Assembly (NCBI GenBank): GCA_964480435.1 | Contig: CAYZSS010000002.1 | Span: forward strand, 17,654-49,653 | Direction: 5' to 3' | Source of the DNA: an uncultured archaeon | GTDB lineage: Archaea > Iainarchaeota > Iainarchaeia > Iainarchaeales > 0-14-0-20-30-16 | Length of the DNA stretch: 32,000 bases | Part shown: piece after piece, positions 2,808-29,638 of the stretch | Layout: every line of letters starts with the position of its first letter | Numbering within the stretch: position 1 is the stretch's first letter | Program-made: the position numbers and the translations under genes | Notes under the pieces: model-generated | Told to the model about the DNA's origin: nothing | The model's input: the letters and a program-made list of their open reading frames with translations, nothing else | Database searches by the model: none

Positions 2808-2866
2808 ATAGGAAAAAGACCAAGAAATAATAAAAATGTATTACAAAATTAGAAGCCTTCAAACTT

Positions 2867-2959
2867 AGGTTTTGGCAAACCTAACATTTTTTCAAAAGGC
2901 TGGACGCAGGGAGAGGGATTCGAACTGCCCTTTTAGGAAAAGGGTAAGTTGCCCAAAAA
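2867..2959 (-). pseudogene. tRNA-Ser remnant: a leader-like hairpin fused directly to the T-loop and acceptor 3' strand, followed by the trailer
   Basis: 2867-2925 repeats 2976-3034 (59 nt, 1 mismatch). That block covers tRNA-Ser positions 53-73 plus 38 nt of trailer. 2926-2959 is about 85% identical to the leader at 3098-3134 that precedes the intact tRNA-Ser. tRNA positions 1-52 are missing. Confidence 0.6.
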
Positions 2960-3013
2960 TGAATCCCTCTACATGAGGTTTTGGCAAACCTAGCATTTTT
3001 TCAAAAGGCTGGA

Positions 3014-3097
3014 CGCAGGGAGAGGGATTCGAACCCTCGCCTCCTTTCAGAGACTGGCTTTCCAGACCAGCGCGTTGAACCGCTTCGCTACCCCTGC
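3014..3097 (-). tRNA. tRNA-Ser (anticodon GGA), class II with a long variable arm, no encoded CCA
   Basis: The reverse complement reads GCAGGGGTAGCGAAGCGGTTCAACGCGCTGGTCTGGAAAGCCAGTCTCTGAAAGGAGGCGAGGGTTCGAATCCCTCTCCCTGCG. The acceptor is GCAGGGG/TCCCTGC, the anticodon arm is CTGGT-CTGGAAA-GCCAG, and the T arm is GAGGG-TTCGAAT-CCCTC. Confidence 0.9.
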
Positions 3098-3502: not shown

Positions 3503-4492
3503 ATGGTTCCAAAACCCAAGAGAGTAATACCTAAAGCAGGACAAACACAATTACCAGGCGTAGGTGCAAAATTTCTTGGGAGACACCATGAACAAAGGGT
3601 AATGAGAGCAATATATACTAAAACAAAAGATCCTAAAGCACCGATAGACCGAAGAATACACCCAAAAAACAGCCCAATGGGTAGAGCACAACTACTTGAT
3701 TTTATAATAGAAAACCACGACCTTCTAAAAGATAGAGCAATAGGCGAATTTTATGAAGATATAAGAGGCATGACCCAAACCGAAATAAAATCACGAAAAG
3801 AAGAGTTAGATTCTTTTTTAAGGGTTTTAGATGAAACATATAAAAAAATAAGAAAAGGAAATCTTGAAACTTTAGTAAATTACGCCGAAAGAGATGAAAA
3901 AACGCTATTATTAACTGCACAAGGATTTATTACAAGAATAAGGCAGTATGTAACTAATCCACACAGAGTATTTGGCTATTTTGTAATTGATATGAATAAT
4001 CTAAAAAGAATTAATGATGGGATATCACATACACTTGGAGACAGTTATCTTAGGACAATGGGTGAAATTGGATTAGAATTACAAAAAATATATGCTCAGT
4101 CAAATATTAAGTTCACTTTTGCAAGAACTGGCGGAGATGAATTTGAAATTTTGTTAAGCATGCCCAGAGATAAAGGATATAATTATGAAGAAACTGCAAA
4201 AAACTTTATTAGACAAATTAGAGCAATAGGAAAAAAAAGATGGGATGAAAAAAGAACAAGAGTAGCAACCGAATTAAGAATTGCAGAAGAGAATATACCT
4301 GAAATATCTTTCGCAGTTGGCTCTTTCATTGATTTAAAAACTTGCCCAATAACAATAACAGACCCAGGAAGTTATGAAAGAATTACTCCAGAACAAAGAG
4401 ATAATATTGACCTATACATTGAAGACATAAGAGATAAAGCAGATAGACACATGCAAGAAAATAAAGCAGAAATGAAAGAAAGAAGGAGATAA
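3503..4492 (+). CDS. GGDEF-domain protein (diguanylate-cyclase type) with an uncharacterised ~125-aa N-terminal region
   Basis: It has an intact GGDEF motif (FARTGGDEFEILLS). The upstream metal and substrate motif is VIDMNNLKRINDGISHTLGDSYLR, which matches the DxxxFKxxNDxxGHxxGD pattern. A DEKTLLLTAQGFITRI segment resembles the D-x-LTGL-x-NR lead-in helix. There is no RxxD I-site 5 residues upstream of GGDEF. Confidence 0.8.
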   Translation: MVPKPKRVIPKAGQTQLPGVGAKFLGRHHEQRVMRAIYTKTKDPKAPIDRRIHPKNSPMGRAQLLDFIIENHDLLKDRAIGEFYEDIRGMTQTEIKSRKEELDSFLRVLDETYKKIRKGNLETLVNYAERDEKTLLLTAQGFITRIRQYVTNPHRVFGYFVIDMNNLKRINDGISHTLGDSYLRTMGEIGLELQKIYAQSNIKFTFARTGGDEFEILLSMPRDKGYNYEETAKNFIRQIRAIGKKRWDEKRTRVATELRIAEENIPEISFAVGSFIDLKTCPITITDPGSYERITPEQRDNIDLYIEDIRDKADRHMQENKAEMKERRR

Positions 4493-6836: not shown

Positions 6837-7367
6837 ATGATGGAAGAAATTGAAATAAAAATTCTTGAAATTAACAAAGACGAAGTCATAAAAAAACTAA
6901 TTAAATTAGGTGCAAAAAAAGTATTCGATGGCCCAATGAATTCAATTTATTTAGATAGAGATAAAGAACTAAGAGATACAAAAAAAACTTTAAGAATCCG
7001 TCAAAAAGGAGACAAATGCATTGTTACTTTTAAAATAAAAAAAGAAGACAGAGATGTAAAAATTGCAGACGAATATGAAACAGAAGTTAAAGACTTTGAA
7101 GAAGCAAAACTAATTTTTAAAAATTTAGGATTCGACGAATATAAAACAGATTTCAGAAACAGAGTTTCCTATAAATTAAAAAATTCATTAGTTGAAATTG
7201 ACACTTTCCTTAAAGCCCATAATTACGTACCAACATTTTTAGAAATTGAATCTCCAAATAAAGAAGAAATAAAAGAAGTTGCTAAACTATTGGACTTTTC
7301 AGAAAATCAATTAAAACCATGGTCTGGAAAAGAAGTTTTAGAATATTATAAAAAAAAGAAAAAATAA
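6837..7367 (+). CDS. CYTH-domain protein (triphosphate tunnel metalloenzyme / class IV adenylyl cyclase-like)
   Basis: The N-terminal EIEIK matches the ExExK CYTH signature. At 176 aa the size and the alternating charged beta-strand pattern also fit. Confidence 0.75.
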   Translation: MMEEIEIKILEINKDEVIKKLIKLGAKKVFDGPMNSIYLDRDKELRDTKKTLRIRQKGDKCIVTFKIKKEDRDVKIADEYETEVKDFEEAKLIFKNLGFDEYKTDFRNRVSYKLKNSLVEIDTFLKAHNYVPTFLEIESPNKEEIKEVAKLLDFSENQLKPWSGKEVLEYYKKKKK

Positions 7368-7381
7368 AAAAAAGAATTAAA

Positions 7382-7465
7382 CCACGAAGTGGCTTTTTCG
7401 CGAACCTTTTGGAAAAAGGCTCCCACGAAGTGGCTTTTTCCCAAGGCTTTTTTGAAAAAAGCCTT
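7382..7465. terminator. Bidirectional terminator region between the convergent CYTH and thermosome genes
   Basis: Two identical 18-nt units, ccacgaagtggctttttc (7382-7399 and 7423-7440), each form the hairpin CCAC-GAA-GTGG followed by T5. Two palindromes are also present: ccttttggaaaaagg (7405-7419) and aaggcttttttgaaaaaagcctt (7443-7465). The latter overlaps the thermosome stop codon. Confidence 0.5.
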
Positions 7466-10204: not shown

Positions 10205-12115
10205 ATGGAGAAAATAGAATTACTTTTACCAGCAGGGAACTGGAGTTGCATTAGGGCAGCAGTAGAGAATGGAGCAGACGCAATTTATTTTGGTACTACT
10301 GAATTTAATGCCAGACGAAAAGCAGACAACTTCTCAATAGAGGATGTGAAAAAGGTTGTTTTTTATTGTCACAAAAACGGAGTTAAAGTATACTGCACAT
10401 TAAATGTACTTGTAAAAAATAGCGAAATTACCAGTTTTTTTGCAACAGTAAAAACACTTTATTTAGCAGGTGTAGATGCAGTAATAGTACAACATATTTC
10501 TTTTATTGATATTATAAAACAAAACTTTCCTGGCATGGAAGTACACCTTTCAACACAGGCAGCAATTAGTAATTCATATTTCTCAGAATTAATAAAAGGT
10601 GCAGACAGAGTTATTCTACCAAGAGAATTCAGTCAAAAAGAAATAAAAGATTTTATTAAAAAAACGAAACTTCCTGTTGAAATCTTTGTGCAGGGGGCAT
10701 TATGTTTTTCTTACAGTGGGAAATGTTTATTTTCTAGTTTTCTTGGCGGTCGATCAGGAAATAGAGGCTTGTGTGCTCAACCCTGCAGAAAAATATTTTC
10801 GGGGTCACGTTTATTAAGCATGAAAGAGTTAAGTTTAATTCAAAAAATCCCGCAAATTATTGATAGTGGAGTTTCTTGTGTAAAAATTGAAGGACGATTA
10901 AGAAACGAAAAATATGTAGCAGCAGCAACAAGAGTTTATAGACTTGCAATTGATTCTTATTACAAAGGAACATTTAAAGTAAATCCCGAAAGTTTTAAAG
11001 AATTAGAATTTGCTTTTAATCGTGAATTTACAGAGGGTTATTTTTCTGAAAAGAAAGATTTAGTTTCTCCAGAGAATGCAATGTCACGGGGATTATATTT
11101 AGGCACTTTAGAAGAAGGAAATTTAATAAAAATTACAGAGGATTTATCTGTTGGAGATGGCCTGGGAATTTGGTTAAAAAACAAAGTGGATGGAGCAAAG
11201 GTAAAAAAAATGGAACGTGATGGAAAACCCATTACTGATGCACGAATGGGAGATACAGTAAAAATTAATATAAAAGCGCCGGCAGGAACAAAAATTTACA
11301 AAACATCATCCCAAAAAGAGCTTACCGCCAGAGAAATAAGGTTTGATAAGAGAGCACAAATTTTTGTAAGAAATAGAGAAAATAATCCACTTGTTTTACC
11401 TGCTATTTTGCCACAAAGATCAAAAAACCAAGAGATAATTGTAAAGATATACTCAACAGAAGAAGGCAATAAGGCATTAGATACAGGAGTAAAAGTATTT
11501 TATAATATTTTTGAAAAAGATTTTGATTCTAAATTTGGTGCTTTTGTTCCAAGAATATTATCTGATTTTGATGTTGAAAAAGCAGTTGAATTAATTAAAA
11601 GCCTTAAAGTTAAAGACGTTCTTATTGGAGATTTAGGAGTATATGCTTTACTAAAAGATTCTGGATTAAATTTGTATTTAGATTATTCTGCAAATGTCTT
11701 TAATGATTATGATATTTTGTTTTTCAAAAATGCAATTCCAATTGTTTCTCCTGAACTTTCTTTTAGAGAATTAGGAGAATTTAAAAACAAGAATTTTGTT
11801 GTACTAACACACGGAAAAATAGTTTTTATGAACACAAAGTATAACCAACTTCCAAGTTCATTAACTGATGAAAAAAATTATATTTTTCCAGTTAGAAAAG
11901 AGTATAATTATTATCAAATTTTAAACAGTGTAGATTTAGGATTAGTTTACAAAGTAATGGGGTTAAAAGACATAAAAATAAACAAATTCTTTTTAGATTT
12001 AGAATATGATGTTTCAGAAACAATAAAAATGTACCAAGACATTCTAGCAAGTAAAAAAGTAAATGCTGAGAAAAACAAATACACCAAAGGGCACTGGGAA
12101 GAAGGGGTACTTTAA
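10205..12115 (+). CDS. U32-family protein (peptidase U32 / RlhA-TrhP-UbiU-like Fe-S enzyme), long form
   Basis: The N-terminus is ELLLPAGNWSCIRAAVENGADAIYFG. The sequence EIFVQGALCFSYSGKCLFSSFLGGRSGNRGLCAQPCR gives CX6CX15CX3C. Confidence 0.85.
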   Translation: MEKIELLLPAGNWSCIRAAVENGADAIYFGTTEFNARRKADNFSIEDVKKVVFYCHKNGVKVYCTLNVLVKNSEITSFFATVKTLYLAGVDAVIVQHISFIDIIKQNFPGMEVHLSTQAAISNSYFSELIKGADRVILPREFSQKEIKDFIKKTKLPVEIFVQGALCFSYSGKCLFSSFLGGRSGNRGLCAQPCRKIFSGSRLLSMKELSLIQKIPQIIDSGVSCVKIEGRLRNEKYVAAATRVYRLAIDSYYKGTFKVNPESFKELEFAFNREFTEGYFSEKKDLVSPENAMSRGLYLGTLEEGNLIKITEDLSVGDGLGIWLKNKVDGAKVKKMERDGKPITDARMGDTVKINIKAPAGTKIYKTSSQKELTAREIRFDKRAQIFVRNRENNPLVLPAILPQRSKNQEIIVKIYSTEEGNKALDTGVKVFYNIFEKDFDSKFGAFVPRILSDFDVEKAVELIKSLKVKDVLIGDLGVYALLKDSGLNLYLDYSANVFNDYDILFFKNAIPIVSPELSFRELGEFKNKNFVVLTHGKIVFMNTKYNQLPSSLTDEKNYIFPVRKEYNYYQILNSVDLGLVYKVMGLKDIKINKFFLDLEYDVSETIKMYQDILASKKVNAEKNKYTKGHWEEGVL

Positions 12116-12166: not shown

Positions 12167-14593
12167 ATGGGCAATGAAAGCAGTGCTATAAAAAAAAAGG
12201 ATAATCTTTTAACTTATGATAGTAATAACAAAGAAAAAACAAATAGCATTAGAAGACACCCACAAAAAGCAGAAATTACAACAAAAAAATTAATAATTGC
12301 ATTAAGCATAATAGCAATTATTGTTATTTTATTAGTAGCAGGATATTTCCTATTTTTCCATAAAAATACAGCAAAAACACAACAAGCAGTTATTTTTAAT
12401 AACGGGATATTTATAAAAAAAATCCTGCCAGGAAACCCAACCACAGAGTTTTTGACTTTAGATAATGCACAAGACTATTTTTTAATTGCTTTTTCTCCAA
12501 CTGATTCCAAATTAAAAACAGACAATGCAATATTAACCCTAGAAAAAAACATCTACTTAATTGCAACCACAAATATTTTTGACATAGAGTTAACCTACAA
12601 TTCAAAAAGTTGCGGGCTATATTTGCCAATAAAAACAGCAAATTATAATGATTTTACAGAAGAAGAAAGAACAGAATTAATCAATAAAATAAAAGAAGAA
12701 TATTACCCTGAACTAGATTGCGACTTAGTTAATGTATTTGAAAAAAGCATTATTGAAGAGTTAAATAACGAAATTGTAAAAGGCAATTTAAAAGCACAAA
12801 AAAATACAATAATTTATCTAGCTGCTAAATCAGATGCATTTACTACATACTTAGATGCAATAACCAATTCTGCAAATAATGAACTTAAAAAAGCAAGGAT
12901 AACAAAACAGTATTCAGCCATACCTTTAGACATCAGTTTGGAAGTAAATAAAAATAGCATAAATCCGATTGATGATGATTTTGTAATAAAAATTACTGCA
13001 AATAAACCACTTTTTAAAGAAGACTATATTCTAAATGTTGTAGAAGTAACAAATAAAGAGACATACCCTTTAGCAACAGAATCCAGCCCATATCAAGAAC
13101 AGCCTTTTGTTGCAACAAATTATTGGGATGGTAGCATTAACCAAGGAAAGTTTGGATTAAAATATAAAAAAGCAACATATAATTTAGAAGTAATTAGTAA
13201 ATCCACAAACCAGGTACTTGCAAAAACAACAATAAACACAGACCCAGGGGACCTGTATACAATAGAATACAATTACTATGATTTAAAAAAAGCAATACCC
13301 CCCGAAAAGTATTCCCAATTAAGTTTATATAACCAAGAATCAGAAAAGATACCTTTAATCTTTGATAAACTAGAAAGCAACCCACAAATTGCAAGCACAA
13401 ACCCAGAAATAAAAATAACAACACATAAGACTTATCAAATCCACCCAAAAAGTATTCCGGCTTATAAATTTACACCTTCTGAAACAGAAGTCATTAAATT
13501 ATTAGAACAGTTACCATTTTTGGAAAATATGGAGAATTTATTTTTAAGAGAGCAAGGGGTTTTTGAAAAAAATCTAAACCCTGCACAATTTAAAGCCTTA
13601 AATGATTTAGTTGAAAAAAATGTTATTTATTTAGGACAGCCATACATTGCAACAGTAACTCCCGATTTTACAGAAAGAGATAATTTAATAGACACATCCA
13701 CATTAACTACTTCTTTTTTCGACATAAAACAAATTGAAATAAACACATTTCTTTTTTCACACCCATGTGCAAACAAAGACGACACTGTTTGCTTAATGCA
13801 AGCCGCATATTTGCGCCAATTACCAAAGGATGGTGATATAGGCGGTTATGCAAACTTAGAAAAAAATGCAGATATTAACAAAGATTTTATTATTACTGCA
13901 AAAGAAGGAACCAACAAAGATTGGTTATTTATTGCCCCACACGGTGGAGTAATAGAACCAGGAACAGACCTTCTTGCAGCGGATTTAGCTAGCGAGGGTA
14001 ATTATGGGCTATATACTTTTGTAAGCAATAATCAGGTTTGTTTTGAAAATGAGTGCAGGTCAATGCATATGACATCAACACAATTCGATGAGCCAAGCAT
14101 GTTTAAATTAATAGATGATTATAATGAAGGAGTTGCAATATCTTTACACTGTTATGGAAGTAATGCAAAAGATGATCCTTACCCTGGAGAAGAAAATGAA
14201 CATATAGTAATTGGTGGACAAAACCATAATTTACAAATACTAATGGTAAAAGAATTAACTCAATTAGGATTTACGGGGTTAGAAATAAGAGCAAAAGATT
14301 ATGCTGACAATTTAACTGAATTAAATAAACTTAGGGCTGCTGTCCCAAGCAGTGTAGAGGTTTCTATAAATGGATTATTTGCGGGGGTAGATTCAGCAAA
14401 TATGGTAAACCTTAGCAAAGACAAAGGAGTTCAAATAGAAATTAGCAGAAAATATATGCGAAAATTTATTATCCTTAACTCAGAATGTGGATTTACAAAA
14501 ACCCAGACATATCATAATTTTGTTACTGGTTTAATTAATGCAATGCACCAATATGAATCAGAGTATATTTATCAAGATGTGGTTGAAAGTTAG
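12167..14593 (+). CDS. Type II membrane-anchored surface protein with a C-terminal poly-gamma-glutamate-hydrolase-like (PghP/DUF867) domain
   Basis: A K-rich N-terminus is followed by one TM helix (LIIALSIIAIIVILLVAGYFLFF). The C-terminus reads LFIAPHGGVIEPGT...MHMTSTQFDEP...ISLHCYGS...IVIGGQNHNL...GVQIEISRKYMRKF, which matches the PghP family pattern including the H/E/H zinc ligand positions. The Shine-Dalgarno sequence is AAGGTG. Confidence 0.8.
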   Translation: MGNESSAIKKKDNLLTYDSNNKEKTNSIRRHPQKAEITTKKLIIALSIIAIIVILLVAGYFLFFHKNTAKTQQAVIFNNGIFIKKILPGNPTTEFLTLDNAQDYFLIAFSPTDSKLKTDNAILTLEKNIYLIATTNIFDIELTYNSKSCGLYLPIKTANYNDFTEEERTELINKIKEEYYPELDCDLVNVFEKSIIEELNNEIVKGNLKAQKNTIIYLAAKSDAFTTYLDAITNSANNELKKARITKQYSAIPLDISLEVNKNSINPIDDDFVIKITANKPLFKEDYILNVVEVTNKETYPLATESSPYQEQPFVATNYWDGSINQGKFGLKYKKATYNLEVISKSTNQVLAKTTINTDPGDLYTIEYNYYDLKKAIPPEKYSQLSLYNQESEKIPLIFDKLESNPQIASTNPEIKITTHKTYQIHPKSIPAYKFTPSETEVIKLLEQLPFLENMENLFLREQGVFEKNLNPAQFKALNDLVEKNVIYLGQPYIATVTPDFTERDNLIDTSTLTTSFFDIKQIEINTFLFSHPCANKDDTVCLMQAAYLRQLPKDGDIGGYANLEKNADINKDFIITAKEGTNKDWLFIAPHGGVIEPGTDLLAADLASEGNYGLYTFVSNNQVCFENECRSMHMTSTQFDEPSMFKLIDDYNEGVAISLHCYGSNAKDDPYPGEENEHIVIGGQNHNLQILMVKELTQLGFTGLEIRAKDYADNLTELNKLRAAVPSSVEVSINGLFAGVDSANMVNLSKDKGVQIEISRKYMRKFIILNSECGFTKTQTYHNFVTGLINAMHQYESEYIYQDVVES
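12261..12773. repeat. 513-bp dispersed repeat, copy 1 (partner at 26203-26715)
   Basis: The two copies sit at a constant offset of 13942 at both ends, with mostly third-position differences. 12674-12747 is identical to 26616-26689 (74 nt). Confidence 0.85.
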
Positions 14594-14654: not shown

Positions 14655-15035
14655 TTACTTCTTTTTTGTAATATTGTCTATTCCTTTTTCGATAGCAGAA
14701 ATAAGACTTCTCTCAGTACCATATTCTAAAAATATCTGGGATACTGCTTTAAGTGATCCTGATAACTCTGAGCCTCTTTTATAGATGCAAATTATTGGTA
14801 TTAGTTTTTTGTCTGCCCAACCCAATTCAATACCTAATCCTATTGAAGGATTTGATACGTCTGCAATAACTAAATCACAATCAGTATTAAAAAACTCTTT
14901 TGAATTATAGGGTGCTGTTGAATGTTCGTGTGGCAAAACAAAATTATGAATTTTATTTAATGCACTTTTCCTTATTGGATCATATAGTTCTTTCTTAAAA
15001 TCAAAAGAAGTTGAGTGTGCAACATAAATATTCAT
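14655..15035 (-). CDS. Nucleoside 2-deoxyribosyltransferase-like Rossmann-fold protein
   Basis: 126 aa. CDLVIADVSNPSIGLGIELGWADKKLIPIICIY resembles the D-x-G-T-x-x-E-x-G-x-A...PV motif of the NDT/Rcl-type family. The assignment is tentative. Confidence 0.45.
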   Translation of the reverse strand: MNIYVAHSTSFDFKKELYDPIRKSALNKIHNFVLPHEHSTAPYNSKEFFNTDCDLVIADVSNPSIGLGIELGWADKKLIPIICIYKRGSELSGSLKAVSQIFLEYGTERSLISAIEKGIDNITKKK

Positions 15036-18596: not shown

Positions 18597-19787
18597 CTAT
18601 TGTGAAATAATAAAAACCTTATCTTTAATTCTTACTCTTTCATTCACTTTCAGACCCACTTTTGAACCTTTATTTGCCTTTTGAATTGATTTCCCGTCTA
18701 TTTGTATTGAACTAACTTTCTGCCTGAAAAATGTGCTTGTTCCTTCCACCTGGATAGTATCACCTTTTTTTAATTCTGTTTGTAATTTTAATTCAAACAC
18801 ATTTATTTTTGCGTAAAAATTTGATGCATTTCCTAAATAGATTTTCTTTTCTGTTTCTAAAGATTTGTCTTTTTCATGTATGCTTTCTTTTCCAGGAGTG
18901 TAGAAATAAAAACCAGAGGTAAATCCACGGTTGTATACTTTTTTTAATTCTTCCAGATATTCTTTTTTCTTTTTTTCAGTAAATTTTCCTTTAGAAATAT
19001 CATTCAAAGCGGATTTGTAAACTTTTGCAGCAACATAAACATATTCTGCAGGCTTTGTTCTGCCTTCAATTTTTATTGCTTTAGGTTTTAAATCTGCAAT
19101 TTTATCCAGGAATTCAATTGTACAAAGATCTTTTGAACTAAAGATTGTGTTTCCAACAACATCTAACTCTTTATCAGACTCTTTCATATAAAATGTACGT
19201 CTACAGACTTGTGTACATTCTCCTTTATTTGCACTTTTATCAAAGCAATACAAACTTAAAAAACATCTTCCTGAAATTGATATGCACATACTACCATGAC
19301 AAAAAACTTCAAAATCAACCGCTGATTTTTTCTTAAATTCCTTTATTTTTTCTAAAGATAATTCCCGTGCAAGTACAACCCTATCGATTCCAAAAAATTC
19401 TTTTAATTTATTTGCGCTTAAAGAGTTACTTACAGACATTTGGGTACTAACATGTATTGGGATTTTATTTGCTTTAACTATTTCAATTACACCCAGATCA
19501 GAACAAATTATCCCATCTATTTCAGCTTTTTTTGCTTCAAAAACTATTTTTTTTATTTTTTCTAATTCAGTATCATAAACAATAGAGTTCAAAGTTAAAT
19601 ATGATTTCATTTTATTTTTATGACATAGAGAGACTATTTTTTTCAACTCTGAAACTTCAAAGTTCTTTGCAAAAGCCCTAAGGTTAAAATCATTAACTCC
19701 AAAGTACACTGCATCTGCTTTTGCTTTTATTGCTGCTTGAAGTGATTCTTTACTCCCTACTCCTACTAAAACATCTATTTTTGCCAT
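18597..19787 (-). CDS. U32-family protein, short form
   Basis: The N-terminus has KAKADAVYFG. The sequence EVFCHGSMCISISGRCFLSLYCFDKSANKGECTQVCR again gives CX6CX15CX3C. Confidence 0.85.
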   Translation of the reverse strand: MAKIDVLVGVGSKESLQAAIKAKADAVYFGVNDFNLRAFAKNFEVSELKKIVSLCHKNKMKSYLTLNSIVYDTELEKIKKIVFEAKKAEIDGIICSDLGVIEIVKANKIPIHVSTQMSVSNSLSANKLKEFFGIDRVVLARELSLEKIKEFKKKSAVDFEVFCHGSMCISISGRCFLSLYCFDKSANKGECTQVCRRTFYMKESDKELDVVGNTIFSSKDLCTIEFLDKIADLKPKAIKIEGRTKPAEYVYVAAKVYKSALNDISKGKFTEKKKKEYLEELKKVYNRGFTSGFYFYTPGKESIHEKDKSLETEKKIYLGNASNFYAKINVFELKLQTELKKGDTIQVEGTSTFFRQKVSSIQIDGKSIQKANKGSKVGLKVNERVRIKDKVFIISQ

Positions 19788-21009: not shown

Positions 21010-22725
21010 CTATTCTATTTCTGTTACTTTAAAGTTGTCAAAAGCTTGAGCCGAGCTAGACAAATATAATCCAATCCATCTTGCTTTTTCATCTTTTTCT
21101 GCACCGGAGTTATCCACGTATGTGGACCATTCTTCGCCATTTACATAGGCAGTGTACGTGTTGCCTTTAACAACAAATTTCAAAGTAACATCTGCCCCTT
21201 TTGCTAATGTACCTGTTGGGTTTTTCTGAAGAATATCACTCCAACCACCAGAGATACCCGCTGCTGCTTTTATCCAATATGACTCTCCAGGATAAGCAAT
21301 ACCATAAGATTCTATAAATGGCTTATAGATAAAGGTAAGACCATCAATTGCAGCATAATAAGGATATTCTGTGCCTCTTAGAACTACTCCCGCATCTAAT
21401 GAATTCTTTAGGTCCACTTCAATAATATAGTTCTTAGCGTTTACTTTTAGACCCACAAATTTTTTACCTACATAAGGAGTAGTTGGTACAACACCATCAA
21501 CCAAATATTGTAATTTTCCTGCTGCAACTCCAAAACCATTCTTTGACAAACCCCAGTCAGCCCAGTATTTTTTTGTAAATTCAGGATTTTCAAAATCATC
21601 TTTAAATCCAGTCATTACTCCTGCCGGGCCTAAATCAGTAACCCCGCTGTCAACATAGTCTTCAATAGCAGTTACTTTAAAGTTGTCAAATACTTGCCCA
21701 GTATTAGGCCAATAAAGACCAACCCAGTTTTCTTTATCCCCGCTATATTCATTTTTTTCATCTATATATGTTACAGATTCTTCACCATTTACATAGGCAG
21801 TAAATTTATTTCCTTGGACAACTACTTTCAAGTGCAAATTAACACCTTCATCTAAAGTTCCTTTTTCACTTTCCAAATATAAGGACCCCCAACTATAAGA
21901 TCTATTTGTCCAATATGCTTTTCCAGGCATCTTTGCTTCATAGGAATAATTTGATGGCAAATAAATGTATGCCAAACCGCCAAGAGATTTTTCTGGTGCG
22001 AATTCTAAACCTCTAACTATAATTCCTGCGTGTTGTGAGTTTTTTAAATCAACTTCAACAACATAATCTTTGGCGTTTACTTTTAAGCCAATAAATCTTT
22101 CACCAACAATTTTTGTATCTGGAACTTTTCCATCAATTAAATATTGAAGACCACCATTTACAACTTCAAAAGAATTTTCTCCAAAGCCCCAACTAGCCCA
22201 ATATTTTGCACTATAATCTGCGCTTTCAAAATTATCAGAAAAAGGCAGTGACACTCCGCTATCAGTTACTTCTGAATTATTTTCTGTTTTTGTTTCATCT
22301 GTATAAGTTTGTGTATTATCTATTGATTTTGTTTCAGTATCAGTAATTGTTGTTTCTGCAGTTACAATTTCTTCTGGATTCCCAGACTCAATTAATTTTG
22401 AGCCATTAGCAATAACACACATTACTTGGTTATCACTTTCTCTAATATACACTGTTATATGTGTACTGTCCTGATAAAAATCTGCAACCCAGTAAGGCAC
22501 AGCTTTCATCTGCACACCACATTCTTCTTTTATTTTATCTAAATATTGATCTACAACATCTTGCTCCCATAATGCCATTTTAAATTCTGCATTTGGGTAT
22601 TGTGCTAAAAAAGCCTGTACTTGTGGCAATCCTTTTGCTACACTTTCCACGCCCCCACTACCAACACAACCAGATAGTGATAAAACCAATACTAATGTTA
22701 ATACCCCTACTATTGTTTTCCACAT
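21010..22725 (-). CDS. Secreted lipoprotein with two tandem ConA-like/LamG (DUF1080-type) lectin domains
   Basis: The signal peptide plus lipobox is VLVLSLSGC. A Thr/Glu-rich linker follows. Two ~200-aa repeats lie at about 21661-22248 and 21013-21612. Each starts D(N/D)FE...KYWA.WG and ends FDNFKVT(A/E)IE. The DNA repeat gttactttaaagttgtcaaa occurs at both repeat ends. The Shine-Dalgarno sequence is AAGGGGG. Confidence 0.7.
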   Translation of the reverse strand: MWKTIVGVLTLVLVLSLSGCVGSGGVESVAKGLPQVQAFLAQYPNAEFKMALWEQDVVDQYLDKIKEECGVQMKAVPYWVADFYQDSTHITVYIRESDNQVMCVIANGSKLIESGNPEEIVTAETTITDTETKSIDNTQTYTDETKTENNSEVTDSGVSLPFSDNFESADYSAKYWASWGFGENSFEVVNGGLQYLIDGKVPDTKIVGERFIGLKVNAKDYVVEVDLKNSQHAGIIVRGLEFAPEKSLGGLAYIYLPSNYSYEAKMPGKAYWTNRSYSWGSLYLESEKGTLDEGVNLHLKVVVQGNKFTAYVNGEESVTYIDEKNEYSGDKENWVGLYWPNTGQVFDNFKVTAIEDYVDSGVTDLGPAGVMTGFKDDFENPEFTKKYWADWGLSKNGFGVAAGKLQYLVDGVVPTTPYVGKKFVGLKVNAKNYIIEVDLKNSLDAGVVLRGTEYPYYAAIDGLTFIYKPFIESYGIAYPGESYWIKAAAGISGGWSDILQKNPTGTLAKGADVTLKFVVKGNTYTAYVNGEEWSTYVDNSGAEKDEKARWIGLYLSSSAQAFDNFKVTEIE

Positions 22726-22742
22726 TTTGCAGCCCCCTTAAA

Positions 22743-23171
22743 TTAAACCCCACATTGAGTCAAAATAATTGTGCCATCTTCAGCCACAGTAAACACTTTT
22801 TCTGTATTGTCCAAGTCATAGGTAAACACATTATAAAAAAAAGCATTCAATTTAACTGCTTCTGTCACATCACAGCTCAAATTAGTTGATTTTAAATATT
22901 CCTTTACATAATCAATTGCTTCTTGTTCATTTGATATTGTTTTTGTTCCTTCCATTAGTATTGGGCTAGGAGTTACTCCTGAGTCACACCAACAGGAAGG
23001 CACTAAACAGCTATAAAGTTCGCAAACATCATCTTTCACTGCTAAACAATTATCAGGCAAGTCATAATTGTTTTCATCAGATACTACACAGCCATAAAGA
23101 AAAACCAAAGAAATAGATATTACAAAAAAAGATATGAATAGTAACTTATAATTTCGCCTATGTTTTGGCAT
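22743..23171 (-). CDS. Small Cys-rich lipoprotein, function unknown
   Basis: The signal and lipobox read LLFISFFVISISLVFLYGC. The Cys cluster is CLAVKDDVCELYSCLVPSCWCDSG. It lies 17 nt upstream of the lectin gene on the same strand. Confidence 0.6.
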   Translation of the reverse strand: MPKHRRNYKLLFISFFVISISLVFLYGCVVSDENNYDLPDNCLAVKDDVCELYSCLVPSCWCDSGVTPSPILMEGTKTISNEQEAIDYVKEYLKSTNLSCDVTEAVKLNAFFYNVFTYDLDNTEKVFTVAEDGTIILTQCGV

Positions 23172-25240: not shown

Positions 25241-25398
25241 ACAAATTTTTGGAATAATACAAACACCCCATATTTCTTTTAAGAATTAAACTAAACATCT
25301 CTTTTTTAAACGTTTTCCTTAGAAATATATTTAGTAAGTTGCTGATTTCCAAAAAGAGAAATCCCAACAGACACATAAAACAAGTTTTATGAGAGTAT

Positions 25399-25471
25399 AG
25401 TCCGATAGTGTAGGGGTCTATCACTCGGGGCTTTGAACCCCGAGACCGGAGTTCGAATCTCCGTCGGACTA
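25399..25471 (+). tRNA. tRNA-Gln (anticodon TTG), A1-U72 first pair, no encoded CCA
   Basis: The sequence is AGTCCGATAGTGTAGGGGTCTATCACTCGGGGCTTTGAACCCCGAGACCGGAGTTCGAATCTCCGTCGGACTA. The anticodon arm is CGGGG-CTTTGAA-CCCCG. Confidence 0.9.
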
Positions 25472-26183: not shown

Positions 26184-29042
26184 ATGGCTAACAAAAAAGG
26201 TACACAAAAAACAGAAATTACAACAAAAACACTAATAATTGCAGTAAGCATAATAGCTGTTATTATTGTTTTATTGGTAGCTGGGTATTTCTTGTTTTTC
26301 CATGAAAATGCTGCAAAGACACAACAAACAGTTATTTTTAATAATGGGATATTTACAAAAAAGATACTGCCAGGAAACCCAACCACAGAGTTTATGACTT
26401 TAGATAATGCACAAGATTATTTTTTAATTGCTTTTTCTCCAACTGATTCTAAATTAAAAACAGATAATGATGTGCTAACCCTAGAAGAAAACATATATCT
26501 AATTGCAACCAACAATGTTTTTGACATAGAACTAACATATAATTCAAAAAGTTGCGGATTATATTTACCAATAAAAACATCAAACTATAATGATTTTACC
26601 GAAGAAGAAAGAATGGAATTAATCAATAAAATAAAAGAAGAATATTACCCTGAACTAGATTGCGACTTAGTTAATGTATTTGAAAAAAGTATTATTGAAG
26701 AGCTAAATAACGAAACCCTGATGGGTAATTTAGAAGCACAAAAAAATACAACAATTTATCTGAAAGACAAAGAAGAATCAGCTTTAAAAACAGTTTATTT
26801 TAATGCAATAGATGCAGGAAAAGCCATGCTTGAAGAAGCAAAGATAAAAAAACAGTACAGCGATGTTGATTTAAAAGTTACCATGACAGCAAATAAAACT
26901 AACATAAATCCATTTGAAGATGAGTTTATAATAACTATTGTTGCAAACAAACCACTTTTTAAAAATGATTATATTTTAAAAGCTAGAGACATGTATAACA
27001 ACAAAGAGTATTACCTAGATACTGAGCCAACATCAAACCAAAATGCACCTTTCGTTGCACAAATTTATTGGGACGGTTGTATTAATAACAAAGATTATGG
27101 ATTAATGTATAAAAATGCAACATTTGATTTAAGATTAATTAGCCCTACTACAGACAGAGTATTTGATATTCAACTAGTTACAACCAATATAGGAGAATTA
27201 TATTTACCCGCATATAGTTACAATGAATTAGAAAAAGCTATACCCCCAGATAAATACTCTGAAATAGACGTATTTAATCACGAATCAAAAAAAACACCCA
27301 TAATTTTTAATTATTTTGAGGCAAACCCTGGGCCCTCAAAAAGTAGTAATCCAAATATAACCGTAACATTCAATAAAACATACCAACTACATTCAAAAAG
27401 TGTTTTTGCATACAAACTCACTCCTTCTGAAACAGAGGTAGTTAAGTTATTAGAAAAGTTACCCTTTTTGGAAAATATAGATAATTTATTTTTAAGAGAG
27501 CAAGGCGTTTTTGAAAAAGATTTTACAGAAACCCAAAAAGCAGCATTAAATAGCCTAGTTGAAAAAAACATAATTTATTTATGGCAACCATATATTGCCA
27601 CAATAACTCCAAATCTTACTGAAACAGCAAATACAGAATTAGTAACAGAGTCCAAATTAAACTGGAATTTTTTTGAAAAAAAAGAACTACTAATACGTAC
27701 TTTCCTTTTTAGTGACAAGCTATCGCTACAAGACGCAATTACAGTAATAAAAAATTCAAACTCAACTGAACAAAAGTTTGAACCAATAATAAAGATTGCA
27801 AATAAAATACGTATAAGACAAAACAAACTTAATTCTTTAAATATGGCCTATGACCTTTATGAAAGTGATTATATTCTTGCATTAAAAAATAAAAAAATTA
27901 GTTGTATTTCAGGGGCCCTACTTATTGCAAAAACAACAGATTATTTGCTTAGAGAAGCTGGAGAAAAAAATTACAAGATTTCTTTTGTAGAAGTTGAGGG
28001 GTCAGGAGAATATTGGGAAGGAGCATACAAAGGAGCACACATCATCACAAAAGTAACCATAGATGATGTAACAAAATTCTTTGATGCAACAAACAGCACA
28101 AATCAAGATGATTTTATTATTATGTACGCAGGCAAAAAATACAAATTACAAGCGAATGATTCACAAAAAACAACCTACAGAATAAGTACTGAATTCAGTA
28201 TAGAAGACACAGAACTTTTTTCAAAAATGCAAGCAAAAATTGTAAAGGGAACCGAGCTAACAACACAGGAGATTATGTCTATTCCAATTGATTTTTTGCC
28301 TACTGCCTTAAGCATTTATAACGAACTGCAAAAAAATCAAGTTATATTTTCTATATTAAGCAAAAGAAACCTTACTACCACCAGCCAAATTAAACAAATA
28401 CAAAACAAATACACTGCATTAAAAATAAACTCAAGTATCCTAAACTATTACTCCAATACCAACACAGAAATACCGTCTGAATTTGCCACCAATCAACACA
28501 ATGCTTTTTTAGATTTATATAAACAAGATGCCAACTTATATGACAACATTAATCTTTTAAGAATTTTAAGCCCAAACATTTTAGCATATAATGAACTTTT
28601 AAAAAATAAAAACACATACTCAGACATATTATGGGACAGAATTTTAACTACTTTTTCGATATTCCCTTTAGATCCAGAAAAAATGACAAAAACACAAATA
28701 GAAGATGCTAAAAAAATTATTTTCTTATATCCTGCTTATCATGAAAGCCTTTACACTATTTCAGAGCCTGATGCACCAGAACAAAAAGAGATAACCTCTT
28801 ATCAGCTCATATTAATGGGATTTGCCACATTAAGATACCAATATTATTACCTTACTAATAATCACACAGATTATGCTAATTCATTAGATAACTTTGTTAT
28901 AAAAGTAGTAAGTTACATAAATTCAAAAAAATCCGGGTTCAAACAGAGATTTGAAAACCCAGTAGTTAGTTCTAATGATCCTCTTGACAAAAAAGGAGCA
29001 CAAATTTATATTTATGGCCAGGAAACTACAGATTTTACTTAA
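26184..29042 (+). CDS. Type II membrane-anchored surface protein, paralogue of 12167-14593, with a transglutaminase-like cysteine-peptidase core and a long helical tail
   Basis: The TM helix is LIIAVSIIAVIIVLLVAGYFLFF. Residues 11-184 are about 90% identical to the paralogue. A candidate C-H-D triad reads ISC574ISGALLIAKTTDYLLREAG ... GAH619IITKV ... FFD634ATN. Confidence 0.75.
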   Translation: MANKKGTQKTEITTKTLIIAVSIIAVIIVLLVAGYFLFFHENAAKTQQTVIFNNGIFTKKILPGNPTTEFMTLDNAQDYFLIAFSPTDSKLKTDNDVLTLEENIYLIATNNVFDIELTYNSKSCGLYLPIKTSNYNDFTEEERMELINKIKEEYYPELDCDLVNVFEKSIIEELNNETLMGNLEAQKNTTIYLKDKEESALKTVYFNAIDAGKAMLEEAKIKKQYSDVDLKVTMTANKTNINPFEDEFIITIVANKPLFKNDYILKARDMYNNKEYYLDTEPTSNQNAPFVAQIYWDGCINNKDYGLMYKNATFDLRLISPTTDRVFDIQLVTTNIGELYLPAYSYNELEKAIPPDKYSEIDVFNHESKKTPIIFNYFEANPGPSKSSNPNITVTFNKTYQLHSKSVFAYKLTPSETEVVKLLEKLPFLENIDNLFLREQGVFEKDFTETQKAALNSLVEKNIIYLWQPYIATITPNLTETANTELVTESKLNWNFFEKKELLIRTFLFSDKLSLQDAITVIKNSNSTEQKFEPIIKIANKIRIRQNKLNSLNMAYDLYESDYILALKNKKISCISGALLIAKTTDYLLREAGEKNYKISFVEVEGSGEYWEGAYKGAHIITKVTIDDVTKFFDATNSTNQDDFIIMYAGKKYKLQANDSQKTTYRISTEFSIEDTELFSKMQAKIVKGTELTTQEIMSIPIDFLPTALSIYNELQKNQVIFSILSKRNLTTTSQIKQIQNKYTALKINSSILNYYSNTNTEIPSEFATNQHNAFLDLYKQDANLYDNINLLRILSPNILAYNELLKNKNTYSDILWDRILTTFSIFPLDPEKMTKTQIEDAKKIIFLYPAYHESLYTISEPDAPEQKEITSYQLILMGFATLRYQYYYLTNNHTDYANSLDNFVIKVVSYINSKKSGFKQRFENPVVSSNDPLDKKGAQIYIYGQETTDFT
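26203..26715. repeat. 513-bp dispersed repeat, copy 2 (partner at 12261-12773)
   Basis: See copy 1. It encodes the shared anchor and stalk. Confidence 0.85.
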
Positions 29043-29572
29043 TTTAATTTCATTATTAATTCTCTTTGATTTTCTAGAATTTTTTTCATTAAATCAATAT
29101 TAACATTTGTTTTTGCAACCAAACTAGCCAAATCCAATTTTATCTGAGCAATATCCTTATGAAATGAGTCCATTTTATCAAACGAAACAGAATCTAATTT
29201 TTCATAAGTTCTATTGATGTTATTATTTAAATTTTGCATACCTTCTTTATTTTCTTCTATTTGTTTTGTTGCATTATCCACAACATTCATTGCAAGATTA
29301 CTAGCCAATTCAGCCTGTTCAGCATAATCTTTTGCATTAGTTGTTGGTTTTTCTGCTACAGGAGTACTTTCTTCAACAACAAGATCTTCCTTTGGCACTT
29401 CTTTCTTAGCTTCTTCAGCAACTTCTGTATTTGAAGCAGAGCCATTAGAATCTATTGCGGATTTTACTTCTTTTTCATTATATCCCAAAGAAATAAGCAT
29501 TTGTGTTACTTCTTCCTTAGAAATACCAGAGTCAAGCATTTTTTTTGCATTTTCCATTAGAACAGAATCCAT
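29039..29572 (-). CDS. Hypothetical protein with an N-terminal UBA-like helical module, an acidic linker and a C-terminal coiled coil
   Basis: I place the start at ATG 29572 (MDSVLMENAKKMLDSGISKEEVTQMLISLGYNEKEVKSAIDS), preceded by GGTGGT. The function is unknown. Confidence 0.5.
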   Translation of the reverse strand: MDSVLMENAKKMLDSGISKEEVTQMLISLGYNEKEVKSAIDSNGSASNTEVAEEAKKEVPKEDLVVEESTPVAEKPTTNAKDYAEQAELASNLAMNVVDNATKQIEENKEGMQNLNNNINRTYEKLDSVSFDKMDSFHKDIAQIKLDLASLVAKTNVNIDLMKKILENQRELIMKLN

Positions 29573-29638
29573 AATACCACCAATCTTTGTGAATAGCAAC
29601 AAAGCTGTATTTAAATATAATTGATTTTAAGTTTATAT

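What the first reader, a model, noticed from the sequence alone, without database searches (positions are those of the whole stretch)
12167..14593. Cassette-swapped pair of surface proteins: shared anchor and stalk, unrelated C-terminal enzymes (partner gene at 26184-29042)
The 808-aa and 952-aa proteins are both type II membrane-anchored, with a K-rich N-terminus followed by one TM helix. Conservation along them is mosaic. It is about 90% aa identity over the first ~175 post-anchor residues and about 50% over the middle ~230 residues. It rises again to about 75% in the block YK(F/L)TPSETEV..LPFLEN..LFLREQGVFEK..PYIAT. Homology stops abruptly after a shared TFLFS pentapeptide (13745-13759 and 27699-27713). 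Downstream of that junction the sequences are unrelated: a 277-aa PghP-like hydrolase versus a 442-aa region with a Cys-His-Asp peptidase-like core. This layout is the hallmark of bacterial polymorphic toxin/effector families (CdiA, Rhs, MafB), which have a conserved delivery or presentation module, a short conserved junction and swappable C-terminal domains. I am not aware of such a system being described for an archaeal symbiont. Unlike classic systems, no small same-strand immunity ORF follows either gene. That fits effectors aimed at another organism's envelope rather than at kin.
Basis: partly seen in the sequence, partly recalled or inferred. Interest (0 to 1): 0.8.

Follow-up and report, generated by a model that had tools for sequence, protein, structure and literature searches.

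The report
Two archaeal surface enzymes sharing one stalk
Two neighbouring genes of a small uncultured (DPANN-type) archaeon encode membrane-anchored surface proteins with the same roughly 500-residue stalk but unrelated enzyme heads; this looks like ordinary gene duplication plus replacement of one head, not a swappable-toxin system.

Summary
A (12167-14593, 808 aa) and B (26184-29042, 952 aa) are 64% identical over 515 aa, and similarity stops at TFLFS. Both genes were assembled identically in independent samples.

A's head is a PghP/YndL-family zinc gamma-glutamyl hydrolase (Pfam 101 bits). All five residues needed for PghP activity are conserved. B's head has no detectable homologue. Its Cys-His-Asp core remains an untested motif-level idea.

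The polymorphic-toxin reading is not supported.
- A profile search of 1.84 billion protein representatives found only A, a B-type cluster and one distant protein sharing an 86-aa block.
- The B-type orthologue keeps the same head, about 51% identity across the junction, and the same gene neighbourhood.
- There is no immunity gene, orphan cassette or delivery domain.

The mosaic conservation has two causes. One is a 5' gene-conversion tract (dS 0.42 between paralogues, against about 1.6 to the orthologue). The other is unequal selective constraint (dN/dS 0.13, 0.40, 0.16).

Best reading: B-type is ancestral. A arose by duplication and replacement of the head with a PghP module that also occurs as a stand-alone secreted protein. 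Both are tethered ecto-hydrolases.

A side finding: variation between strains clusters in the middle region that includes the Ig-like domain, not in the heads. Interest is moderate to low.

The parts
12167..14593 (+). Gene A: 808-aa signal-anchored surface protein with the shared stalk and a PghP-family head
   Evidence: ORF and translation. Identical protein on three independently assembled contigs.
12290..12358 (+). A: the single hydrophobic anchor (aa 42-64, LIIALSIIAIIVILLVAGYFLFF), preceded by a K/R-rich tail of 41 aa
   Evidence: Kyte-Doolittle 19-residue maximum 3.05. 10 K+R against 5 D+E before it. No other hydrophobic segment.
12251..12781 (+). A: gene-conversion tract (aa 29-205), covering the anchor and the conserved N domain with two invariant Cys (C149, C185)
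   Evidence: dS between A and B is 0.42 here, against 0.97-1.15 in the rest. dS of either paralogue to the L006 orthologue in the same region is about 1.6. 88% nt identity over 300 nt (D1). Cys invariant in A, B and P0002.
12782..13411 (+). A: variable middle region (aa 206-415); aa about 249-359 is predicted as a 7-strand Ig-like beta-sandwich
   Evidence: 47% identity to B and dN/dS 0.40. AF2 pLDDT is 64-83 only for this stretch. Foldseek hits Ig-like domains with probability 1.0.
13412..13651 (+). A: conserved block of about 80-90 aa, predicted helical (KTYQI...TPSETEV...LPFLEN...EQGVFEK...LVEKNVIYLGQPYIAT)
   Evidence: dN/dS 0.16. This is the only part shared with the distant protein P0003 (hhalign probability 96%, 86 columns).
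13745..13759 (+). A: TFLFS, the last shared residues and the breakpoint of the head replacement
   Evidence: Reads TLLIS in the B orthologue and QFLFS in P0003.
13760..14590 (+). A head: PghP/YndL-family Zn gamma-glutamyl hydrolase domain (aa 532-808) with H592, E597, H634, H661, E758. It carries a 26-aa insertion from K710.
   Evidence: PF05908 E 6e-29. PDB PghP/YndL profile hits at 6e-25 to 7e-22. Residues map to PghP H40/E45/H78/H103/E165 (PMC6506827). Insertion shown.
26184..29042 (+). Gene B: 952-aa signal-anchored surface protein with the shared stalk and an orphan head
   Evidence: ORF and translation. Identical protein on independent contigs. Full-length orthologue P0002/P0007/P0008 at 51% identity.
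26232..26300 (+). B: the single hydrophobic anchor (aa 17-39)
   Evidence: Kyte-Doolittle maximum 3.09.
26193..26723 (+). B: partner of the gene-conversion tract (aa 4-180)
26724..27356 (+). B: variable middle region (aa 181-391). This is where strain-level replacements cluster in the orthologue.
27357..27596 (+). B: conserved helical block (aa 392-471)
27699..27713 (+). B: TFLFS
27714..29039 (+). B head (aa 511-952): orphan domain. Its most conserved core is aa 547-636 (nt 27822-28091), which holds the head's only Cys (C574) plus invariant H619 and D634. A long predicted alpha-helical region follows.
   Evidence: No Pfam, NCBIfam, PHROG, PDB or phage hit. 53% identity to the orthologue. Core identity 0.67-0.73. 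AF2 pLDDT 42.
29039..29602 (-). Convergent downstream gene (187 aa, predicted soluble, coiled-coil-like). It is not an immunity gene.
   Evidence: Opposite strand. 61% identical to the syntenic ORF in L006, so it is more conserved than B itself.
14655..15035 (-). Convergent downstream gene of A (126 aa; weak resemblance to nucleoside 2-deoxyribosyltransferase). It is not an immunity gene.
   Evidence: Opposite strand. Only ORFs of 66 aa or less lie on the + strand downstream of either gene, and they overlap these genes.

Best explanation
A and B are paralogous, N-in/C-out, single-pass cell-surface proteins of a small-genome, low-GC archaeon. Its nearest named relative in public data is annotated 'Candidatus Diapherotrites' (DPANN).

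The two proteins share a presentation scaffold of about 470 aa:
- a strongly constrained N domain with two invariant cysteines;
- a fast-evolving middle region containing an Ig-like beta-sandwich;
- a constrained helical block of about 90 aa.

The scaffold holds an enzyme head outside the cell.
- B carries the ancestral head. It has an orphan alpha/beta core with an invariant Cys/His/Asp, followed by a long helical region.
- A arose by duplication of a B-type gene 14 kb away on the same strand. Everything after TFLFS was then replaced by a PghP/YndL-family zinc gamma-glutamyl hydrolase module. That module also exists as a small stand-alone secreted protein in similar low-GC groundwater contigs.
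- Later, a gene-conversion event of about 530 nt re-homogenised the anchor and N domain of the two copies.

Inferred function: both are tethered ecto-hydrolases acting on an external polymer. A would cut gamma-glutamyl (isopeptide) linkages, in a poly-gamma-glutamate matrix or capsule or in gamma-Glu bonds of a wall peptide. B has an unknown substrate. The shared N domain would bind a common partner such as the cell's own surface layer or a host surface.

Shown: the architecture, the paralogy, the PghP membership with intact catalytic residues, the conversion tract, the conserved synteny of B, and the rarity of the family.

Inferred: the topology, the direction of the head replacement, the enzymatic activity, the substrate, and the role in any host interaction.
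For: Paralogy and breakpoint.

Independent assemblies.

Topology: one N-terminal hydrophobic segment with the positive charge on the inside, and invariant Cys pairs in the ectodomain.

A head:
- PF05908 at 101 bits against a cutoff of 22.
- PDB PghP/YndL hits at 6e-25 to 7e-22.
- About 30% identity to 160 Bacillus and Staphylococcus phage PghP genes.
- H592/E597/H634/H661/E758 align with PghP H40/E45/H78/H103/E165, whose mutation impairs activity (PMC6506827).

Stand-alone relative: P0010 is 267 aa with an N-terminal hydrophobic leader. It is 38% identical from A residue about 539 to the end of the domain.

B-type is ancestral and vertically inherited:
- Orthologues P0002/P0007/P0008 have the same head.
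- Neighbours are conserved: the convergent 187-aa ORF at 61%, RtcB, RNase HII, tRNA-Gln, and a 477-aa gene at 65%.
- A and B are closer to each other than to the orthologue in every region.

Gene conversion: dS between A and B is 0.42 in A29-205 and about 1.0-1.15 elsewhere. dS to the orthologue is about 1.6 in that same region, so synonymous sites there are not unusually constrained.

Unequal constraint: dN/dS is 0.13 (N domain), 0.40 (middle) and 0.16 (block). The same high-low-high profile appears against the orthologue.
Against: - No enzymatic or localisation data exist.
- Both AF2 models are poor (pLDDT 42 and 41), so the folds of the N domain, the block and the B head are unknown.
- The direction of replacement rests on a single sister lineage. 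Whether that lineage also has an A-type gene could not be checked, because its contigs end before the equivalent locus.
- Synonymous sites outside the conversion tract are saturated, so the age of the duplication relative to the lineage split is poorly resolved.
- The distant P0003 carries the conserved block and an FLFS motif followed by yet another unrelated C-terminus. This leaves some room for a wider head-exchange pattern than the two architectures seen.
- The word-indexed protein search missed B although B is in its collection. Negative results from that tool are therefore weak. The exhaustive search sees only one representative per 50% cluster.
Confidence: 0.6

Rival explanations
1. Polymorphic toxin/effector family. 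A conserved delivery or presentation module with a conserved junction carries interchangeable C-terminal toxin cassettes used against other cells.
For: - There is a shared N-terminal module, an abrupt loss of similarity after a short shared motif, and two unrelated heads.
- A distant protein, P0003, has the conserved block, an FLFS motif and a third, unrelated C-terminus.
- Polymorphic toxins do exist in archaea (cited in PMC6393860).
Against: - Only two architectures plus one remote protein turned up among 1.84 billion representatives.
- Every B-type relative keeps the same head, with similar divergence on both sides of the junction.
- B sits in conserved housekeeping synteny.
- There is no same-strand downstream immunity candidate and no orphan cassette.
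- There is no Rhs, VENN, HINT, DUF4157 or secretion-associated domain.
- The TFLFS motif is not conserved as such in the orthologue (TLLIS).
- An uncleaved N-terminal membrane anchor argues for a tethered protein, not a delivered one.
- The strain-variable part is the middle region, not the head.
Confidence: 0.08
2. Episymbiont host-attack or attachment tools. Both heads are isopeptide-bond hydrolases aimed at a host envelope: gamma-Glu bonds by A, and Lys/Ala isopeptide bonds by a transglutaminase-like Cys-His-Asp head in B, as in pseudomurein endoisopeptidases. The hypervariable Ig-like patch would set host specificity. This is a more specific version of the best explanation.
For: - The relatives are DPANN-type (PIU02546.1, 'Candidatus Diapherotrites archaeon').
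- The PghP active site is intact.
- C574/H619/D634 are invariant within the most conserved part of B's head. In the low-confidence model, Cys lies just before a helix and His on a strand.
- Nonsynonymous strain differences cluster in the middle region, as reported for surface proteins of Nanoarchaeota (PMC6142677).
- Cell-wall hydrolases are common in Nanoarchaeota genomes (PMC12352652).
Against: - No statistical similarity links B's head to any Cys peptidase or transglutaminase family in Pfam or PDB.
- hhalign against the pseudomurein endoisopeptidase PeiP of phage psiM2 gives probability 0.2%.
- No host is known.
- PghP-family enzymes are characterised on poly-gamma-glutamate, not on wall peptides (PMC4497714, PMC6506827).
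- A symbiotic lifestyle for this lineage is assumed, not shown.
Confidence: 0.2
3. Nutrient scavenging. A degrades environmental poly-gamma-glutamate or gamma-glutamyl peptides at the cell surface to supply glutamate to an auxotrophic cell. B is an unrelated surface protein that merely shares the anchor scaffold.
For: - PF05908 membership with an intact site.
- Tethering keeps the products near the cell.
- Small-genome archaea lack many biosynthetic pathways. This is general knowledge and was not tested here.
Against: - No transporter or glutamate-utilisation genes lie next to A. Its neighbours are a U32-family protein and the Hel308 helicase.
- There is no evidence for a gamma-PGA source in the habitat.
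- It does not explain the concerted evolution of the shared N domain.
Confidence: 0.1
4. Assembly chimera or collapsed duplication that creates a false shared region.
For: Metagenome assemblies can produce chimeras at repeats. The two genes share stretches of up to 97% nt identity.
Against: - Identical full-length A and B proteins were recovered from separate assemblies of different samples.
- The contig break in ERZ27248937 falls in the CBS-domain gene, not in the repeat.
- The copies are diverged throughout.
- An orthologue of B with the same junction and head exists in other MAGs.
Confidence: 0.01

Closest known systems
Poly-gamma-glutamate hydrolases PghP (phage PhiNIT1), YndL/PghL and PghZ (Pfam PF05908, formerly DUF867)
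   Same: A's residues 532-808 match the family far above threshold. They conserve the Zn ligands and catalytic residues (H592, E597, H661; H634, E758) and are about 30% identical to phage enzymes (PMC6506827, PMC4497714).
   Different: Known members are stand-alone proteins of about 200 aa from phages, prophages and bacteria. Here the domain is fused to a membrane-anchored stalk of about 530 aa in an archaeon, carries a 26-aa insertion (from K710) and has a Cys-containing pre-domain of about 45 aa. Its substrate is untested.
Bacterial polymorphic toxin systems (CdiA-CT, Rhs, MafB) and the archaeal polymorphic toxins described by Makarova et al. 2019
   Same: Homologous N-terminal part, a sharp breakpoint, and unrelated C-terminal domains in two paralogues.
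   Different: Only two architectures are found. The head is fixed across orthologues and the gene sits in conserved synteny. There is no immunity gene, no orphan cassette, no delivery or pre-toxin domain, and the junction motif is not conserved. The protein is anchored rather than released.
Modular secreted or anchored cell-envelope hydrolases that share a targeting module but differ in catalytic domain, for example the modular peptidoglycan hydrolases surveyed in archaea (PMC12352652)
   Same: One presentation or targeting module is combined with different hydrolase domains through duplication and domain shuffling. The location is extracellular, and such enzymes are frequent in DPANN-type genomes.
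   Different: The shared module here has no Pfam family and is found in only two lineages. It is N-terminal and membrane-anchored. One head is an orphan.
Pseudomurein endoisopeptidases PeiW/PeiP (peptidase C71) and the transglutaminase-like Cys-His-Asp superfamily
   Same: Ordered Cys...His...Asp, invariant, in the most conserved part of B's head with spacing 45/15. That this spacing lies in the range of the superfamily is my recollection, not a test.
   Different: No detectable sequence or profile similarity. The structure model is too poor to compare.
Rapidly diversifying hypothetical cell-surface proteins of Nanoarchaeota (PMC6142677)
   Same: Clusters of nonsynonymous differences between near-identical strains in an exposed region of a surface protein.
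   Different: A different protein family. Here the variation is confined to short patches of the middle region, which includes the Ig-like domain.

Membership tests
Polymorphic toxin systems (CdiA/Rhs/MafB type) | Homologous N-terminal regions carry many alternative, unrelated C-terminal toxin domains across strains and species | tested here: not met
   An exhaustive profile search of 1.84e9 representatives gave 3 proteins. All 5 members of the B-type cluster have the B head. Scans of GTDB species genomes, JGI metagenomes and IMG/VR added only one B-type locus. Caveat: only one representative per 50% cluster was searched.
Polymorphic toxin systems (CdiA/Rhs/MafB type) | Cognate immunity gene immediately downstream on the same strand | tested here: not met
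   The downstream genes are convergent, and one of them is conserved at 61% in the orthologous locus. Same-strand ORFs are 66 aa or shorter and lie inside those genes.
Polymorphic toxin systems (CdiA/Rhs/MafB type) | Orphan C-terminal cassettes (with junction-coding DNA) near the main gene | tested here: not met
   tblastn of the N module, the block and both heads against the window and all fetched loci finds only the full genes.
Polymorphic toxin systems (CdiA/Rhs/MafB type) | Dedicated secretion, delivery or pre-toxin domains (Rhs core, VENN, PT-HINT, DUF4157 and others) | tested here: not met
   No such Pfam or NCBIfam hits were found in either protein.
Gamma-PGA hydrolase family PF05908 (PghP/YndL/PghL) | Significant match to the family profile over the whole domain | tested here: met
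   101.3 bits against a gathering score of 22, profile positions 4-188 of 191. PHROG 4175 at 4e-21. PDB PghP/YndL at 6e-25 to 7e-22.
Gamma-PGA hydrolase family PF05908 (PghP/YndL/PghL) | Zn ligands His40/Glu45/His103 and residues His78/Glu165 that are required for activity in PghP | tested here: met
   They align with A's H592/E597/H661 and H634/E758. Residue roles are taken from PMC6506827.
Gamma-PGA hydrolase family PF05908 (PghP/YndL/PghL) | Zn-dependent endo-hydrolysis of poly-gamma-glutamate | not testable with these tools
   This needs a biochemical assay of the recombinant head.
Transglutaminase-like / papain-like Cys peptidases (including peptidase C71 PeiW/PeiP) | Detectable sequence or profile similarity to a member family | tested here: not met
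   There are no Pfam hits at E up to 10 for the head or its core. The PDB profile search is empty. phmmer with the core gives only chance hits at E of 0.05 or more. hhalign against PeiP gives probability 0.2%.
Transglutaminase-like / papain-like Cys peptidases (including peptidase C71 PeiW/PeiP) | Catalytic Cys at a helix N-terminus, followed by His and Asp on beta-strands | tested here: inconclusive
   C574/H619/D634 are invariant between B and its orthologue in the best-conserved stretch. In the AF2 model, Cys (model residue 69) precedes helix 71-86, His (114) lies in strand 113-121, and Asp (129) follows strand 124-127. The pLDDT is 42 overall, and Foldseek finds nothing.
Ig-like beta-sandwich domains | Seven-stranded sandwich fold | tested here: inconclusive
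   This is the only confidently modelled part (pLDDT 64-83, seven strands). Foldseek gives probability 1.0 to Ig-like domains over about 125 residues, but TM-scores normalised to the query are low because the rest of the model is poor. The best Pfam hit is Bact_surface_Ig-like at E 0.2.
Type II (signal-anchor) membrane proteins | Single N-terminal hydrophobic span, positive charge on the N-terminal side, and the bulk of the protein outside the cell | tested here: met
   This rests on a hydropathy and charge calculation only, because no dedicated predictor was available. Cleavage as a signal peptide is not excluded.

The most novel reading that the evidence does not exclude
The pair may be the visible part of a lineage-specific 'tool-holder' system of an episymbiotic archaeon. 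A concertedly evolving, membrane-anchored stalk with strain-hypervariable patches would present exchangeable isopeptide-bond hydrolases. These are a gamma-glutamyl Zn hydrolase, a new Cys-His-Asp enzyme, and a third head in the distant P0003. They would open or remodel a host envelope. That would be a tethered, immunity-free archaeal analogue of polymorphic effectors.
Probability: 0.12. Interest if true: 0.65.

Novelty: new member of a known kind. Interest (0 to 1): 0.33.

Why it matters
If the best reading holds, this is a clean small example of how streamlined archaea diversify their surface enzymes. A gene is duplicated, one copy keeps the anchoring scaffold and gains a different catalytic head, and gene conversion then keeps the scaffold uniform.

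It also places a PghP-type gamma-glutamyl hydrolase on the surface of a DPANN-type archaeon. It defines three orphan sequence modules (the N domain, the 90-aa block and the B head) that have no family assignment. The heads give concrete enzymes to test for how such cells interact with partners or polymers.

It does not reveal a new kind of conflict system.

Tried and rejected
- Word-indexed homologue searches with the shared module, the B head and the A head. The first two returned nothing beyond A itself, and missed B even though B is in the collection. I therefore treat these negatives as weak and relied on the exhaustive search.
- Scans for related loci. GTDB species genomes gave one B-type locus. 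JGI metagenomes gave nothing in two scans, one with the whole module and one with the block including P0003. IMG/VR gave nothing for the module or the B head.
- AlphaFold2 on the B head and on the shared module, each with a 3-sequence alignment. Both were poor (pLDDT 42 and 41).
- Foldseek against the PDB. The B head gave only noise, E at least 0.34. The module gave only generic Ig-like hits.
- Test of the Cys-His-Asp idea by Pfam at E up to 10, PDB phmmer and hmmsearch, phage tblastn, and hhalign against PeiP from phage psiM2. Nothing was found. The weak resemblance of the core to antibody VH domains (E about 0.05) was judged to be chance.
- Homology of P0003 beyond the block. hhalign of the C-termini gave probability 0.3%, so I rejected it.
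- Immunity-gene idea. Rejected on strand, conservation and ORF content.
- Assembly artefact. Rejected.
- Diversity-generating retroelement as the source of the variable patches. No reverse transcriptase lies in the window, and substitutions in the patch are not restricted to adenines. I did not pursue this further.
- Naming the organism from neighbouring proteins. The clusters carry no names.

Full report
**Observation.** The window contains two same-strand ORFs, A (12167-14593, 808 aa) and B (26184-29042, 952 aa). BLASTP aligns A29-538 with B4-517 at 64% identity (328/515, E = 0) and finds nothing credible afterwards. DNA repeats between the genes are confined to the shared part. The breakpoint falls right after TFLFS at the stated coordinates. 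Each protein has one N-terminal hydrophobic span preceded by net positive charge. The roughly 175-residue high-identity stretch includes the anchor. The 'Cys-His-Asp peptidase-like core' of B is only a motif pattern.

**Not an artefact.** Proteins identical to A and to B are encoded on contigs assembled independently from two ENA samples and one JGI sample. The contig break in one assembly lies in an unrelated CBS-domain gene. B has full-length orthologues in other MAGs.

**Context.** The window has about 30% GC. It encodes an archaeal Hel308 helicase, a thermosome subunit and other housekeeping genes. One member of the B-orthologue cluster is PIU02546.1, annotated 'Candidatus Diapherotrites archaeon', a DPANN name. 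A DPANN-type archaeon is therefore likely. Its lifestyle was not tested.

**Anatomy of the shared part.**
- After the anchor comes an N domain (A66-205) under strong purifying selection (dN/dS 0.13), with two cysteines invariant in A, B and the orthologue.
- A fast-evolving middle region follows (A206-415, dN/dS 0.40). Residues about 249-359 are the only confidently modelled part of the AF2 model. They form a seven-strand sandwich with pLDDT 64-83 that Foldseek matches to Ig-like domains.
- A constrained block follows (A416-495, dN/dS 0.16), predicted helical.
- A loose tail ends in TFLFS.
- None of these modules matches Pfam, NCBIfam, PHROGs or the PDB.

**Heads.**
- A532-808 is a PghP/YndL-family domain. 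It scores 101 bits on PF05908 against a cutoff of 22, gives PDB profile hits at 6e-25 to 7e-22, and is about 30% identical to 160 Bacillus and Staphylococcus phage genes.
- The five residues whose mutation impairs PghP (H40, E45, H78, H103, E165; PMC6506827) align with A's H592, E597, H634, H661 and E758. The head looks catalytically competent.
- Relative to its homologues, A's head has a 26-aa insertion.
- B511-952 has no detectable homologue outside its own orthologues.
- B's best-conserved stretch (B547-636, 0.67-0.73 identity to the orthologue) holds the head's only cysteine (C574) plus invariant H619 and D634. The low-confidence model puts Cys before a helix and His on a strand.
- Nothing links B's head statistically to Cys peptidases. 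This includes a direct profile comparison with the pseudomurein endoisopeptidase PeiP.

**Relatives and history.**
- An exhaustive HMMER search of 1.84 billion cluster representatives with a profile of the shared module found three proteins: A, P0002 and P0003.
- P0002 is a 945-aa B-type orthologue, 51% identical over 931 residues with the same head.
- P0003 is a 713-aa protein that shares only an 86-column block (hhalign probability 96%). In the BLASTP alignment it also shares an FLFS motif. Its N- and C-termini are different.
- All members of the P0002 cluster are B-type.
- The B orthologue lies in the same neighbourhood as B. The shared neighbours are tRNA-Gln, the convergent coiled-coil ORF (61% identity), RtcB, RNase HII and an upstream 477-aa gene (65%).
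- A and B are closer to each other than either is to the orthologue in every region. Identities for A-B, A-P0002 and B-P0002 are 0.89/0.61/0.60 (N domain), 0.47/0.39/0.39 (middle) and 0.63/0.53/0.61 (block).
- The simplest history is that a B-type gene was duplicated in this lineage and the copy's head was replaced by a PghP module.
- The closest PghP relatives are P0010 and P0009. P0010 is a 267-aa stand-alone protein with an N-terminal hydrophobic leader, from a 32% GC groundwater contig. It is 38% identical from about 8 residues after the junction to the end of the domain. P0009 is a longer, truncated protein with different flanks. The module therefore circulates among different architectures.

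**Why the identity is mosaic.** There are two separable causes.
- Constraint differs along the protein. The same high-low-high profile appears against the orthologue.
- The 5' roughly 530 nt (A29-205 and B4-180) have dS 0.42 between the paralogues, against about 1.0-1.15 downstream. Both paralogues show dS of about 1.6 to the orthologue in that same region. Synonymous sites there are thus not unusually constrained, and the tract was homogenised by gene conversion well after the duplication.

**Test of the polymorphic-toxin idea.** The defining features were examined one by one.
- Many alternative heads: not found.
- A same-strand immunity gene: absent. The downstream genes are convergent, and one of them is conserved at 61% in the orthologous locus.
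- Orphan cassettes: absent.
- Delivery or pre-toxin domains: absent.
- A conserved junction motif: it reads TLLIS in the orthologue.
- The head and stalk of B have co-diverged.
- The protein appears tethered by an uncleaved anchor.
- Polymorphic toxins are also already known from archaea (Makarova et al. 2019, cited in PMC6393860 and PMC12352652).
- The only observation in favour is P0003, a third C-terminus behind the block.

**Mechanism proposed.** These are tethered ecto-enzymes on a common stalk. A cuts gamma-glutamyl linkages with a Zn site like that of PghP. B performs an unknown reaction, possibly thiol-dependent. The shared, concertedly evolving N domain binds a common partner. Whether the target is a host envelope (rival 2) or an environmental polymer (rival 3) cannot be decided here.

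**Side observation.** Differences between near-identical strains of the B orthologue are concentrated in short patches of the middle region.
- P0002 and P0007 differ at 40 residues, and 28 of these fall in residues 226-360.
- L006 and L012 differ by 42 nt in 2838. Fourteen of these nt cause 11 amino-acid changes within residues 181-225.
- The variable element of this family is therefore the middle region, which includes the Ig-like domain, not the head. This fits reports of rapidly diversifying surface proteins in Nanoarchaeota (PMC6142677).

**Verdict.** The pair is real and cleanly described. It is best filed as duplication plus domain replacement in a lineage-restricted family of archaeal surface enzymes, not as a polymorphic toxin system. 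It is a new member of a known kind and of moderate to low interest. The main open points are the orphan head of B and the substrate of A.

Noticed in passing
L006:263-3100 vs L012:4009-6846; proteins P0002/P0007/P0008: Near-identical strains of the B orthologue differ mainly in short patches of the middle region. In aa 181-225, 14 nt differences give 11 amino-acid changes. P0002 and P0007 differ at 16 residues in aa 316-360. The heads are almost invariant. This suggests diversifying selection or patchy recombination on an exposed surface.
   Followed up: partly
window 2852-2925 and 2961-3034: A 74-nt tandem direct repeat (91% identity, 109-nt period) includes the last 21 nt of tRNA-Ser(GGA) (3014-3097, minus strand) and the sequence downstream of it. 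ARAGORN and Rfam detect no second tRNA. It may be a remnant of an integration site or a local duplication.
   Followed up: partly
window 25398-26111; L012:3703-4009: The 3' end of tRNA-Gln (25398-25472) is partly repeated at 25544-25579 (75% identity). A HIT-family gene follows (25650-26111), and that gene is missing at the orthologous site of the sister lineage, where tRNA-Gln lies directly upstream of the B orthologue. This may be a small insertion next to the tRNA.
   Followed up: partly
window 3503-4492 (+): A 329-aa ORF has a GGDEF (diguanylate-cyclase-type) domain (PF00990, E 1e-9, 38.7 bits against a cutoff of 23.8) in an archaeal context. From my own knowledge, not checked here, such domains are uncommon in archaea.
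   Followed up: no
window 21010-23171 (-): A 571-aa protein has two DUF1080/3-keto-disaccharide-hydrolase (ConA-like) repeats, which appear as internal DNA repeat D6 (21013-21090 / 21661-21738). A 142-aa ORF follows. Neither gene has a counterpart between the CBS-domain gene and the 475-aa gene in L012, so this is a lineage-specific insertion of another probable surface protein.
   Followed up: partly
window 10205-12115 (+) and 18597-19787 (-): Two U32-family paralogues (636 and 396 aa; the best NCBIfam similarity is to TrhP/UbiU-type enzymes) flank the region that contains gene A and Hel308.
   Followed up: no
window 7382-7417 and 7423-7458: Two adjacent copies of a 36-nt element (CCACGAAGTGGCTTTTTC...) lie between the ORF at 6837-7367 and the convergent thermosome gene. 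They look like paired hairpin terminators.
   Followed up: no
tool behaviour: The word-indexed protein search did not return B or P0002 for queries 64-100% identical to them, although both are in the collection. Negative results from that search should be treated with caution.
   Followed up: yes
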